Shown in pieces: positions 11,002-62,296 of a stretch of 64,000 bases of DNA. The position numbers and the translations under genes are program-made. Each line of letters begins with the position of its first letter. The stretch's first letter is position 1. Under the pieces are notes generated by a model. The model ran no database searches. It worked only from the letters and a program-made list of their open reading frames with translations, and was not told the origin of the DNA. Origin of the DNA: Octopus vulgaris (taxonomy: Eukaryota); assembly GCA_951406725.2 (NCBI GenBank), contig OX597816.1, positions 90,830,001-90,894,000 on the forward strand. The letters are read 5' to 3'.

Positions 11002-11956
11002 ATTAGGGAAATTCAGTACCTTTCAGTTTAATGTTTTTCTTTAAAGATATAACTTGACATAAAAACAAACATTAATACATGTGTGTGTGTGTGTGTGTGT
11101 GTTTGAAAAGTGAATATGGTTATATCATATTTGAAGCTGCTACTTCACAAATTGCTGCTGTAAGTTTCTCACTCCGATTTTTGGACGATAACGGGTTGCT
11201 GAAACTTTTCATGCGTATACTCACTCACTCCACCGACACTTTGATTACTATTGCACGTGTATAAAAGAAATCAGCAATACACTGGCGTACATATAAAGTC
11301 CAGATGCAAACAGAATAAACCTGTTGCAGATTACAGCATTAGAAAACACTACAGCTGTGGTGCGGAAACACTGACAGGCGAATCAATCAATTAATTAGTT
11401 AAGAATAAAAGAAAACGAGAATTCCAACTGGCGCGTTGGCTTGTATTGGCTGAATGACTTCTTTAATACACACACACACACACACACACACATACACACA
11501 CACAGAGTGTAAGTCATTCTTACAGACATACACATACATTCATTCATTCATACAAACACACATATCTGTTTGTATACATACATAAACACACACATACACA
11601 TCTTTAAACCCTTCCCCTGGAGGTCTTTAAAGACGGTCATGTGTTCCAAGCTTCCTACGCCGATAAATAATATATTCCTATACATACTCATATAGTTCTA
11701 TATAACATGACATTCAACTATATCAATATATACATACATTCACTATGTGTATGTGTGTTTACGTATGTTTGTGTGTGTGTGTATAGGTTAGATGAGTTAG
11801 AGGTTAAAATAACCGTCTCAGGGATAGAAGTAGCCATTATACTACCGGTATGTTACCTATATTTAACCATGGGCATACATACGCAAACATATTATATTCA
11901 TAAGTTATAGGTAAAGACAAGGATAAACATGGGTTTATCAAGAATCGAAATTTAAA

Positions 11957-12449
11957 ATTTAAAGAAATCGGAAAATGGAAAAGTATTAATGAACCACAAT
12001 TGACTTCCATCAATCATTATTTATTAAATCAATGCAAATAGACTGCATCCCATCTAACAGCTGTTTCTGCTTCCAATGTTGTATGGTATTGCCACTGATA
12101 TGCAAAAATATGCAAATATATGTAAAAATATTAGTCATATTTGGTAAGAAAACCGATTTGAAACAAGGAACTTAATAAAACCGAAACAAGGAGGCTCATC
12201 CCTTTTTCTTCTGTATGCTCTTCTTTATCTATTTTTCACTCTGATGAAGCTTCTTGTTTCAGATCGGTTTTATTACCAAATATGATTAATACTTTTACGT
12301 ACTTTTGCATATCAATGGCAATACCATACAACATTGGAAGCAGAAACAACTGTTAGATGGGATGCAGTCTATTTGCATTGATTTAATAAATAATAATTGA
12401 TGTAAGTCAATTGTTGTTCATCAGTACCTCTCCATTTTCTGTTTTCTTT

Positions 12450-12454
<5 letters not shown>
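11957..12454. mobile_element. Fold-back element with imperfect inverted arms of about 215 bp, carrying a hammerhead motif; probably PLE-derived
   Basis: About 11957-12172 is the reverse complement of about 12245-12454 (e.g. AAATCAATGCAAATAGACTGCATCCCATCTAACAG vs CTGTTAGATGGGATGCAGTCTATTTGCATTGATTT). The right end abuts (TA)n. Confidence 0.85.
12237..12358 (+). ncRNA. Type I hammerhead motif with a long loop II
   Basis: CTGATGA (12241-12247), stem II GCTTC...GAAGC, GAAA (12343-12346), CAACTG (palindromic CAGCTG in the other arm), GUU site. Stem I is weak. Confidence 0.6.
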
Positions 12455-12539
<85 letters not shown>

Positions 12540-56966: not shown

Positions 56967-58182
56967 ACTCTTACACTTACATATATATGTAAGTATGTCA
57001 TTATTAAAATAATGAAGACGATATCTTCAACTATATTCATGAGAAAATGTCGCAGCATGCTCTATTAAATAGTAAAAGAATGATAAAAAAAAGAACAAAT
57101 ATATTTAATGCATTCACATAGTTTTCTTATTTTTATTCGGAAGCGTCACCATGTCATTTCATTAGAGTTTCCCGGTCGTAACCGATTCCTACGGTGTGTT
57201 ACAGCCTAAGTCGCAATTCTGAAATCTGGCAAAATTAGCTTGTTTGCAAGTGTGTGTGTGCGTGCGCGCCCGCATGCGTGTGCGTATGTGTGCGTGTGCA
57301 TGTGTGTGTATGTGTGTGTGTTCTTTTCCGGTTGGTAAATCAGATAAATGAAACACTATACCATGTGCTATATATACAGGTATACCTCGATTTACGACGG
57401 AAATTGGTTTCTAAACAAGGGACTTAACCCGAAAAACGAGGTAACAATGAAAAATACTTCATTAAGAAAAAAATTATTAGCATATATGTGTTTTAATAAA
57501 TGTTTTGTACATATTTTCACGTGTATTTATTTGATAATTCCTTTTCAGTATTGGATTTTAAACGATCTGTCTAAAAAAAAAAAAAAAACTATGCATTTAT
57601 ATATGTTCACTTTCATCGGCGTAAAGTGGAAAAAGACGTAACTCGAAACAACGGTAGTTGAGGAGTACCTAAACACACACACACACTCCAAAAATTCTCC
57701 ACGTGAGATTCTTATGTTAATTAGATGCACACACTTGGGTTCATGCATCGACTATTCAACTAACATACGAACTGAACCACATATTTATAAACACCAGGAG
57801 CTCTCTTAACTCAACAAGTCGTATTGCATTGTTAACAAGCGGCTTGAACTTTTTCAAGAACTAATGAAACTGAAAGAAAAATCATACACAGGCGCAGGCG
57901 TGGTTGTGTGGTAAAAAGCTTGCTTCCAACCACGTGGTTTTGGGTTCAGTCACTACAATAGCCTCGGGCCGATAAAAGCCTTGTGAGTGGATCTGATGGA
58001 TGGAAACTGAAAGAAGCCCGTCGTATATATATATATAATTCATAAATGAGGGCAAAGGAAAAAATTTCTAATGCCAAATATGCCGAAAAATTGGACATAT
58101 TGTCCATTAACCATATAATGTTTTCACAATACGCACGTTACTCGAAAGAAGGTCGACAGAATTTTCTAAAAAATTCCATTAT

Positions 58183-58240
58183 TACCATATCGGACCGATT
58201 TCAGAGTTAGCTACTAAGAGCTCTCTCTTCATCAGTGATA
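58183..58240 (-). ncRNA. Type I hammerhead ribozyme, intact core
   Basis: TATCA-CTGATGA-AGAG...CTCT-GAAA-TCGG T CCGA-TA-TGGTA: stems I, II and III all pair; AUA site. Confidence 0.85.
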
Positions 58241-58508
58241 CATGTGGCAAAAGAAATAAATGAGATACTTACTCATACCCATGGAAGAAGCAAATACTAA
58301 GTCACGGGCACAACTAAGTACCCCAAATACATCCAAAAATAGAAATACTTCAGCCCATTCGAGGCACGTGCGATTTGAACTGAGGCTCTCACAGAGTGAG
58401 TTAGTTAGTTCGGAAGTGAACGCTTAAATTTATATCAAATTGATATAAATTTAAGCGTTCACTTCCATGGGTATGAGTAAGTATCTCATTTATTTCTTTT
58501 GCCACATG

Positions 58509-58566
58509 TATCACTGATGAAGAGAGGGCTCTTAGTAGCTAACTCTGAAATTGGTCCGATATGGTA
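58509..58566 (+). ncRNA. Type I hammerhead ribozyme, intact core
   Basis: TATCA-CTGATGA (58514-58520)-AGAG...CTCT-GAAA (58547-58550)-TTGG T CCGA-TA-TGGTA. Predicted cleavage after 58561. Confidence 0.82.
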
Positions 58567-59558
58567 ATGGAATTTTTTAGAAATTTCTGTCGACCTTTTT
58601 TCGAGTAACGTGCGTATTGTGAAAAAATTATATGGTTAATGGACAATATGTCTAATTTTTCGGCATATTTGGCATTAGAAATTTTTTCCTTTGCCCTCAT
58701 TTATGAATTGTTTATAACTTTAACCGTTAAAGGTATTTTTTAATATGCTGGCCATTGATGAAATTTTTTTCGAGAAAATATTCTTTTCGAAAAGAATTTT
58801 ATCCTCACATTTGATATATATATATATGTTTGTATGTCTGTGTTTTGTCTTCTCACAAACGCTTGACTACCGATATTGGTGTGTTTACGTCCCTGTAACT
58901 TAGCGGTTCGGCAAAGGGGTACGACAGAAAAAGTACTAGGCTTACAAAGAATAAGTCTTGGGGTCAATTTGTTCGAATAAAAGCTGGTGCTCCAGCATTG
59001 CCGCAGTCAAATGACTAAAACAAGTAAAAGCATAAAAGAATAAACACACACATACACATACACAAATAAATAAATAAAAATACGCAGCACACAAAGAGAC
59101 GAAAAATGAATTCAACGACCATCCATGCTGTTAAAACTATTCATTTAATCTTTTATATTTTACTTTACAAGCCTTCGACAGAAGGAAAGGAAGGAAGGGA
59201 TTCCCGACCTTCATTGATCGCCCAAACTACTAAGATTGATAGGGTTGTTCAGCTCCAGTCAGTCGACAGATTCAAATTAATTTTGTTGTCAACTGCTTCA
59301 CAAATGTAAGTGGATTCAGTGCTGAAATGTATTGCAGTACGGTGTGCTTTCATGGTCAGCTTATTCTTATTCATCACTTTCCTTTGTGAACTTTCTATTG
59401 TTTTTCGGAAACTAATGGTATTTTTAATTAATGATGATGAGAAAGCCAACTACTTTGAGGAGTTGAGATATATGAATTGGAGAATTGGATACGTTGTGTC
59501 AATAGTATTACAGTTCTGCTAGAAAAACAATGTTTTATCAATCTGTCTGTCTGTCTGC

Positions 59559-60784: not shown

Positions 60785-60825
<41 letters not shown>

Positions 60826-60827
<2 letters not shown>

Positions 60828-61028
60828 GGTCCCGGGTTGATTCGGGGTTAACCACAGTAAATAAGGTACTCAATACATAGCAGAGTAAAATTAATTTATT
60901 ATATAGAAGGAGCTTCTACAGGACTAGAACTGTTTCATTCAAGAGAAATCTTCAGGAAGCTCTGAAGGGCTTCCTGAAGATTTCTCTTGAATGAAACAGT
61001 TCTAGTCCTGTAGAAGCTCCTTCTATAT

Positions 61029-61033
<5 letters not shown>
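60826..61033 (-). mobile_element. Minimal fold-back element in (TA)n: perfect 65-bp inverted arms, each essentially one hammerhead
   Basis: 60896-60960 is the exact reverse complement of 60969-61033, with an 8-nt spacer. A unique ~70-bp tail at 60826-60895 has AATAAA just 3' of the minus-strand ribozyme. Confidence 0.9.
60967..61019 (+). ncRNA. Type I hammerhead motif (mirror copy on the minus strand at about 60910-60962)
   Basis: GGGCTTC-CTGAAGA-TTTCTCTTGAAT-GAAA-CAG TTCTAGTC CTG-TA-GAAGCTC: 7-bp stem I, 4-bp stem III, GUA site. Stem II has only 3 bp after a U-U pair. Confidence 0.75.
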
Positions 61034-61071
<38 letters not shown>

Positions 61072-61562: not shown

Positions 61563-61830
61563 ACACACACACACAGACACATGTATGTATGTATATAATA
61601 TATACACAAAGTATGGGGGTTTAGTTCAGAAGTGATCTAAACGATTAGGCACGTTAGGCAAGTGCTGTGACAGATTAATAGGGCTACAATGTTATAGACT
61701 AGACAGTATCTATGGATCTACTGCAGATTTCCGATGCAGCGAATATATAATTGTTAAAGAGGATAACAAACGTAAAGGCAAGGCAAAGACTTCAAGTAGT
61801 ATACAATATTATTATTGGAAAAAATTCAAA

Positions 61831-61886
61831 GTCTTACAGCTGTTTCTTTGATATCCCCGAGTATGGGATATCCCATCATCAGAGAC
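61831..61886 (-). ncRNA. Type I hammerhead ribozyme, intact core
   Basis: GTCT-CTGATGA-TGGGATATCCC ATACTC GGGGATATCAAA-GAAA-CAGCTG-TA-AGAC: 4-bp stem I, palindromic stem III ACAGCTGT, GUA site. Confidence 0.85.
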
Positions 61887-62067
61887 AAATGGAGAAAAAT
61901 AGGGAAAATGAGCATGGTATGTATTAATGAGATGGCTATATAGAAGAAAGTTGAACTATGAACTGTTATGTTTCTTTTTTCTTCTCTCTCTTCATCTTCT
62001 TATTCCTTTACTCCCTTCCTTTTTGTCGTCATCTCATTAACATATACCATTTTCATTTTCTCTATTT

Positions 62068-62123
62068 GTGTCTGATGAAGGAATATCCCATACTCGGGAA
62101 TATTCTAGAAATAGCTATAAAAC
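62068..62123 (+). ncRNA. Type I hammerhead motif, opposite-arm copy
   Basis: GTGT-CTGATGA-AGGAATATCCC...GGGAATATTCTA-GAAA-TAGCTA-TA-AAAC. Stem III is the palindrome ATAGCTAT; stem I has a mismatch. Confidence 0.7.
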
Positions 62124-62201
62124 CTTGATTTTTTTCTAATAATAATATTGTATATGACTTGAGATGTTTGCCTTGCATTAACGTTTGTTGTCCGCTTTAA
62201 C

Positions 62202-62296
<95 letters not shown>

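What the first reader, a model, noticed from the sequence alone, without database searches (positions are those of the whole stretch)
60826..61033. Smallest unit: a perfect 65-bp inverted repeat that is almost nothing but two back-to-back hammerheads
Seen: the arms are identical, the fold-back point is immediately 5' of stem I, and the ~208-bp insert sits between two (TA)n tracts with AATAAA downstream on the minus strand. Inference: reverse transcription stopped and folded back at the ribozyme structure, or this is a minimal mobile ribozyme unit. Stem II is weak, so activity is uncertain.
Basis: partly seen in the sequence, partly recalled or inferred. Interest (0 to 1): 0.7.

Follow-up and report, generated by a model that had tools for sequence, protein, structure and literature searches.

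The report
Run-off copies of Penelope retrotransposon start
This 208-base mirror repeat is two copies of the front end of a Penelope-type jumping gene joined head to head, one of well over a thousand such inserts in the genome, and the join likely marks the capped start of the element's RNA rather than a ribozyme-caused stop or a tiny mobile ribozyme.

Summary
The 65-bp perfect inverted repeat and both hammerhead motifs are real. The insert is not an independent unit. Its minus strand (60961-60826) is 136/136 identical to the front of a full-length Penelope-like element (PLE) with a 713-aa ORF bearing Hydra-clade motifs; the extra 70 bp is the PLE 'tail'. At least 1,763 short head-to-head inserts exist, 363 with shorter centres; this exact centre occurs once. 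In 98 tail-anchored copies, 39 arms end at +1..+5 (first bases of stem I) and none at -1..-5. A TATA-like box lies 29 nt upstream, and a non-native G is enriched before +1. Either arm can be the longer (16 vs 22). Best reading: two cDNAs primed at both ends of a cut (TA)n target ran off the capped 5' end of uncleaved RNA and were joined. The start site and cleavage are untested. Back-to-back PLE hammerheads are in print; I found no paper on the cap/run-off reading, but this scan noted it before in two other genomes.

The parts
60788..60824 (.). left (TA)n target tract; its first bases also match the parent's ATAT just after the tail end
60826..60895 (-). PLE 'tail': +67..+136 of the parent, the leader between the hammerhead and the ORF (ATG at +184); present on one arm only
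   Evidence: identical to full-length copy L217; tail end fixed in the copies sampled
60896..60961 (-). long arm, +1..+66 of the parent; reaches exactly +1 at 60961
60911..60961 (-). type I hammerhead motif; core 60955-60949, GUA 60919-60917; predicted cut between 60917 and 60916 (untested)
60962..60968 (+). junction insert: 6 nt matching +7..+12 of the parent plus one G; read on minus it puts a G at -1 of the long arm
   Evidence: sequence against parent; similar templated centres in other copies
60969..61033 (+). short arm, +2..+66 of the parent, no tail
   Evidence: 0 mismatches to L217
60968..61018 (+). type I hammerhead motif; core 60974-60980, GUA 61010-61012; predicted cut after 61012 (untested)
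61034..61067 (.). right (TA)n target tract; a target-site duplication cannot be read in (TA)n

Best explanation
The insert is two copies of the first 66 and 136 bases of a Hydra-type Penelope-like retrotransposon joined head to head in a (TA)n tract, likely made when the element's enzyme primed both ends of the cut target at two internal sites near the front of an uncleaved RNA and both cDNAs ran off its likely capped 5' end. Shown: identity to the parent, the parent ORF, copy numbers, the sharp edge at +1, symmetry of arm lengths, absence of long/short mixed inserts. Inferred: +1 is the transcription start (TATA-like box at -29, pyrimidine-purine start, extra G); both target strands are primed; the two cDNA 3' ends are joined by microhomology or short templated patches; long inserts come from priming at a downstream pLTR/leader junction; the product is a promoterless dead end whose hammerheads are predicted to be masked by the hairpin.
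For: Minus arm 136/136 and plus arm 65/65 identical to +1..+136 and +2..+66 of full-length copy L217, whose ORF starts at +184 and is flanked by direct repeats. 98 tail-anchored copies: 25 arms end at +1, 39 of 68 at risk at +1..+5, 0 of 29 at -1..-5, 23 run past -115 (Fisher P 8e-9). YATAAAT lies exactly 29 nt before +1 in 21 of those 23 long arms. The native base at -1 is T or C in 74 of 74 long copies, yet 878 genomic matches have G there against 4,347 with another base, most of them native. Hand count on the first 65.6 Mb of C1: of 43 arms ending at +1, 32 are explained by overlap with the opposite arm; of the other 11, 7 have G (P 0.008 at 25%). An extra G at 5' junctions of full-length L1 insertions is read as the cap in PMC11702581 (passages). 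Paired arms: 25 long/long, 7 short/short, 0 mixed; 0 of 57 inverted partners of short tail arms pass -6. Tail-less arm longer in 22, tail arm in 16, within 2 nt in 23 of 61. The anole PLE enzyme cuts and extends both target strands, starts at two internal RNA sites that bound the tail, and uses mostly uncleaved RNA (PMC11167929, parts 1-2 of 4).
Against: No RNA 5'-end data. The bases +1..+4 (AGCT) are a palindrome, which inflates the pile at +1: 10 of the 25 tail arms ending there are such joins, and 5 of the 7 short/short pairs are pairs by construction. The G at -1 is also what one base of cDNA snap-back on the stem I complement would add, and 3 of 100 listed G junctions read as stem-I-complement joins. 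The informative G count is small (7 of 11). +1/+2 AG follows a pyrimidine-rich run and resembles a 3' splice site. D. virilis Penelope has a TATA-less internal promoter (PMC2377424, passages). The sample is the first 100 listed places on one contig, with exact tail matches only.
Confidence: 0.7

Rival explanations
1. The nascent cDNA stops at +1 because its 3' end snaps back on its own copy of the 3' strand of stem I (or on the AGCT palindrome) and self-primes; +1 is a structural hot spot, not the RNA end. This is the nearest form of the first reader's idea and of the self-priming model of PMC3846280.
For: Stem I complementarity ends exactly at +1 and would also add G at -1. 3 of 100 G junctions are stem-I-complement joins; 9 of 61 centres are the perfect AGCT palindrome. 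PMC3846280 reads junction palindromes as self-priming (passages).
Against: Independent stops would give many long/short inserts; 0 seen among 32 pairs. Fold-back of one cDNA cannot make the tail-less arm the longer, seen in 22 of 61. It does not explain the TATA-like box at -29.
Confidence: 0.15
2. +1/+2 (AG) is a 3' splice site, and the short inserts are copies of spliced RNA with a very short or lost first exon, as the D. virilis intron ends at helix I.
For: Pyrimidine-rich run plus YAG in all subfamilies listed. In D. virilis the intron end maps to the 5' end of helix I (PMC4209133, part 2).
Against: No constant exon precedes the site: only the -1 G recurs, bases -2 to -14 vary among the 100 listed. 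Arms end before the AG, keeping it, rather than after it.
Confidence: 0.08
3. A minimal non-autonomous ribozyme unit that is transcribed and spreads as the palindrome itself.
For: At least 1,763 short head-to-head inserts; hammerhead core and stems unchanged across subfamilies.
Against: Exact centre occurs once; 44 centre types in 61 inserts; the tail falls on either side of the same centre; no promoter-like sequence inside; predicted hairpin masks both motifs; no tandem monomers as in retrozymes.
Confidence: 0.04
4. Assembly artefact (chimeric fold-back reads).
For: Perfect palindromes next to (TA)n are hard to assemble; no listed contig bridged this exact centre.
Against: Asymmetric tail, fixed ends and templated centre are not read fold-backs; short-read contigs of two other runs show head-to-head joints of the same family with varied centres.
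Confidence: 0.03

Closest known systems
Hydra clade of endonuclease-bearing Penelope-like elements (Craig et al. 2021, PMC8557442; section 11, passages and supplement hits read), including Hydra-1_Obim of Octopus bimaculoides
   Same: [quoted passage not shown]
   Different: A different family from Hydra-1_Obim (other hammerhead and protein sequence, compared by eye). Unit is about 4.8-5.2 kb because of a microsatellite-rich 3' region; tail is 70 bp, not 30-40; short two-arm inserts without any ORF dominate the sample.
Poseidon of Anolis carolinensis, PAc (Frangieh et al. 2024, PMC11167929; parts 1-2 of 4 read)
   Same: Two internal start sites bounding the tail, both target strands extended, AT-rich target, uncleaved hammerhead RNA as template.
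   Different: Here both 3' ends fall at TA-like bases of the RNA that could pair with the (TA)n target, whereas PAc starts at a non-homologous site; the hammerhead lies wholly in the leader; the parts read do not treat run-off at the cap.
Dual minimal hammerheads on opposite strands of PLEs (Cervera and de la Pena 2014, PMC4209133; parts 1-2 of 4 read)
   Same: Type I motif with palindromic helix III region predicted to favour a dimer; opposite-strand pairs attributed to truncated PLEs.
   Different: There 100-700 bp apart with no fixed join described; here they abut at one base. The G10.1-C11.1 pair they call highly conserved is missing.
Retroviral minus-strand strong-stop DNA (recalled, no call)
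   Same: A short cDNA primed near the RNA's 5' end that runs off the cap.
   Different: Primed by cut target DNA, made twice, and integrated as a dead end instead of being transferred to the 3' end.
Non-LTR retrozymes (10.64898/2026.07.22.740005; part 1 of 5 read)
   Same: Short, non-coding, type I hammerhead, PLE-derived.
   Different: No tandem monomers; ends are set by the parent's leader, not by the cleavage site.

Membership tests
EN+ Penelope-like element (parent) | single ORF with RT and C-terminal GIY-YIG endonuclease | tested here: met
   713-aa ORF in L217 with YRDDG and LVY..YIG motifs; block-by-block likeness to Hydra proteins in the supplement, by eye; 1,115 homologs at E<=1e-30, a few of the 120 listed carrying PF00078 or PF01541 (RT and GIY-YIG, names recalled). 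Pfam and PDB searches of the ORF itself gave no RT or GIY-YIG hit.
EN+ Penelope-like element (parent) | pseudo-LTRs from partial tandems, inverted 5'-truncated copy, one-sided tail | tested here: met
   L212, L216/L217, L229, L230; 57 of 69 short tail arms have an adjacent inverted arm
Hydra clade | RWK motif, DKT, CxCX5C linker, CxxC and CxH, no CCHH | tested here: met
   RIRWR (R for K), LDKTK, CNCPDKTTC, CDLC, CMH, one cysteine between the GIY- and YIG-like motifs
Hydra clade | insertion into (TA)n; hammerhead present | tested here: met
Hydra clade | generally short (<3 kb) | tested here: not met
   unit period 5,193 bp in L212, about 4.8 kb in L217; described as a tendency, not a definition, in PMC8557442
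Hydra clade | phylogenetic placement of the RT | not tested
   no tree built; reference proteins were seen only in a paper supplement
Type I hammerhead ribozyme | conserved core, three helices, NUH site | tested here: met
   across 74 long copies only 5 of 52 columns vary (N7, loop II, one stem III mismatch) against 13 of 22 just upstream (the first 7 columns were fixed by the selection pattern)
Type I hammerhead ribozyme | G10.1-C11.1 pair closing a stable stem II | tested here: not met
   U at both positions, 3-4 bp stem II
Type I hammerhead ribozyme | self-cleavage at GUA | not testable with these tools
   needs an assay
Non-LTR retrozyme | tandem monomers each with a hammerhead | tested here: not met
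   single head-to-head pair; none tandem in the short inserts listed
MITE-like unit copied as a whole | copies share the same centre | tested here: not met

The most novel reading that the evidence does not exclude
Penelope-like elements routinely make a strong-stop-like cDNA from the capped front of their RNA, at both ends of the cut target, and in this family the transcript begins on the first base of hammerhead stem I. More than a thousand genomic palindromes are then a fossil 5'-RACE experiment that maps the start site and shows two-ended priming in vivo.
Probability: 0.6. Interest if true: 0.62.

Novelty: new member of a known kind. Interest (0 to 1): 0.42.

Why it matters
How PLEs make their head-to-head repeats and tails is an open question; published models are self-priming on an antisense template (PMC3846280) and internal initiation in vitro (PMC11167929). 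This family gives a large in-genome test: symmetric arm lengths, no mixed inserts and a one-base edge with a G favour two-ended priming on uncleaved sense RNA, and predict a start site that one 5'-RACE can check. It also means many 'MITE-like' or 'ribozyme' palindromes in such genomes are dead-end PLE products. The locus itself is an ordinary copy.

Tried and rejected
Rfam at gathering threshold: no match in the window. Pfam gave only a below-cutoff VtrA_C match, disregarded; PDB sequence search found nothing. I first took the parent for a Neptune element; the motifs fit Hydra. An apparent 8-kb tandem (L112-L114) is a segmental duplication, not a full-length element. The first arm-end run mis-aligned inverted arms to microsatellites in the references; it was redone with trimmed references. 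Rows dropped: of 100 places listed, one was not in the set analysed, one duplicate with identical context was merged, and one overlap of two fetches was removed, leaving 98; one 'long' arm (L118) ends near -42 by eye. RNA: no RNA holder listed; four guessed-RNA contig sets cover the region but cannot show a start, a strand or a cut, and showed no joint, so they say nothing for or against. The exact centre was not bridged in the contigs listed; presence/absence polymorphism was not tested. Look-ups of earlier findings by this sequence and near this place were blank. Paper searches for a cap or strong-stop reading of PLE palindromes returned only papers already cited or unrelated listings; subscription journals and Repbase reports are not covered, and bioRxiv supplements were not seen.

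Full report
Observation. The arms 60896-60960 and 60969-61033 are exact reverse complements over 65 bp with an 8-nt spacer. Each strand holds a type I hammerhead motif with GUA at 61010-61012 (plus) and 60919-60917 (minus). The insert sits in (TA)n. Rfam found nothing at its thresholds. The genome is 2.8 Gb in 227 contigs; an octopus is my inference from size and repeat content, not a tool result.

Family. The exact 18-nt centre occurs once, but a 23-mer of the arm occurs 6,462 times and a 35-mer of the extra 70 bp 3,578 times, with 0 control matches. Short head-to-head pairs number 363 (0-30 nt between anchors) plus 1,400 (31-60 nt); these are lower bounds from exact motifs. This locus has 48 nt, so it is not the smallest. 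Short-read contigs of two other runs show joints of the same kind with varied centres, so the class is not an assembly artefact; this locus's own centre was not bridged in what was listed.

Parent. Longer copies carry an ORF upstream of the hammerhead. A protein search led to full-length and tandem copies. L217 has a 713-aa ORF between two direct repeats. Taking the A of the 5' strand of stem I as +1, the window's minus arm is +1..+136 with 0 mismatches, the plus arm +2..+66 with 0 mismatches, and the ATG is at +184. The 70 extra bases are therefore the one-sided 'tail' known for PLEs (PMC8557442, passages). The protein shows the Hydra-clade marks listed in section 11 of that paper: RW(K/R), DKT, CxCX5C, CxxC, CxH, no CCHH, (TA)n targets. 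It resembles but is not Hydra-1_Obim (supplement, by eye). Pfam and PDB gave no useful hit; 1,115 homologs were found, a few with RT or GIY-YIG Pfam marks. No tree was built.

Where arms end. I anchored on the tail to avoid choosing copies by their hammerhead, and analysed 98 of the first 100 listed places. 25 tail arms end at +1, 39 of 68 at risk at +1..+5, 0 of 29 at -1..-5, 6 between -9 and -72, and 23 run past -115 (P 8e-9). Only 3 of 96 end at +41..+70, where an enzyme would first meet the folded ribozyme or a cleaved end. Caveat: +1..+4 is a palindrome, and 10 of the 25 are such joins.

Why +1. YATAAAT lies 29 nt before +1 in 21 of the 23 long arms. The native -1 base is T or C in 74 of 74 long copies (these were selected for that motif). 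G stands at -1 in 878 genomic matches against 4,347 others, most of the listed ones native. By hand on the first 65.6 Mb of C1, 43 arms end at +1; 32 joins are explained by overlap with the opposite arm (12 palindrome, 4 AG overlap, 13 CAGG, 3 more); of the 11 left, 7 have G (P 0.008). The window's own long arm ends at +1 with G at -1. An extra G at 5' junctions is read as the cap for L1 (PMC11702581, passages). One base of snap-back on the stem I complement would give the same G, and 3 of 100 listed G junctions are of that form, so the G alone does not decide.

One event, two primers. Among arms reaching +1, pairs were 25 long/long, 7 short/short (5 by construction) and 0 mixed; 0 of 57 partners of short tail arms pass -6. 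So both arms come from the same kind of template. The tail-less arm is longer in 22, the tail arm in 16 and neither in 23 of 61 inserts, which a single folded-back cDNA cannot give, since the tail must be on the first strand. This fits the anole enzyme, which cuts and extends both strands from two internal RNA sites and does not need cleavage (PMC11167929), better than the self-priming model (PMC3846280, passages). Both 3' ends fall at TA-like bases of the parent, so pairing with the cut (TA)n may set them (inference).

The ribozyme. Alone, each arm is predicted to fold as a hammerhead-like three-way junction (-11 to -12 kcal/mol) and two copies as a dimer through stem III (-33 to -34). Across subfamilies 5 of 52 columns vary, all at tolerant places, against 13 of 22 just upstream, which suggests selection on the parent's motif. 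The G10.1-C11.1 pair is missing, and metazoan PLE hammerheads cleave poorly in vitro (PMC4209133). In the insert the 65-bp hairpin (-126 to -130) should mask both motifs. With a unique centre, 44 centre types in 61 inserts and no promoter-like sequence, the insert is best read as a dead end.

What is known. Inverted truncated copies, tails, (TA)n targets and opposite-strand hammerhead pairs are all in print. Three searches found no paper on cap run-off in PLEs. I had written the start-site idea before looking; earlier notes of this scan reach the same reading for other PLE families in two other genomes, and two-ended footprints for other repeats in this genome. They are unchecked and not independent support.

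Verdict. Interest 0.42; the run-off reading, if confirmed by 5'-end mapping, about 0.6.

Noticed in passing
window 58030-58716: A second, unrelated pair of type I hammerhead motifs on opposite strands (58183-58240 minus, 58509-58566 plus) in a 258-bp inverted repeat, 96% identical, with a 55-bp palindrome at 58412-58466; probably another PLE family.
   Followed up: no
window 61743-62211: A third, older inverted pair (81% over 192 bp) with hammerhead-like cores at 61831-61886 minus and from 62067 plus, next to (TA)n.
   Followed up: no
window 11950-12460: A decayed palindrome of about 510 bp (79% self-complementary).
   Followed up: no
L211 (G000:C1:65704500-65714400): A composite insert: both arms reach +1 with G before it, one continues into the ORF with internal deletions and then jumps back to a second hammerhead copy again at G/+1; looks like template switching onto the RNA 5' end.
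   Followed up: partly
L068 (G000:C1:16309700-16310050): 167 nt of unrelated repeat sequence captured between two short arms, joined to +1 through a G.
   Followed up: no
L217:513-586, run X10: 10 of 16 listed differences in this guessed-RNA contig set are A>G; could be A-to-I editing of inverted-repeat RNA, but there is no DNA control.
   Followed up: no
L212, L214, L227-L230: A young subfamily (T>A at +34, making stem III more palindromic) has many near-full-length tandem copies sharing a frame break late in the ORF (506-aa plus 225-aa frames).
   Followed up: partly
L024:2235-2948: The insert there sits beside remains of an older, diverged PLE ORF.
   Followed up: no
L067:4404-7448: An apparently intact 1,015-aa frame with endonuclease and RT motifs of a LINE.
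   Followed up: no
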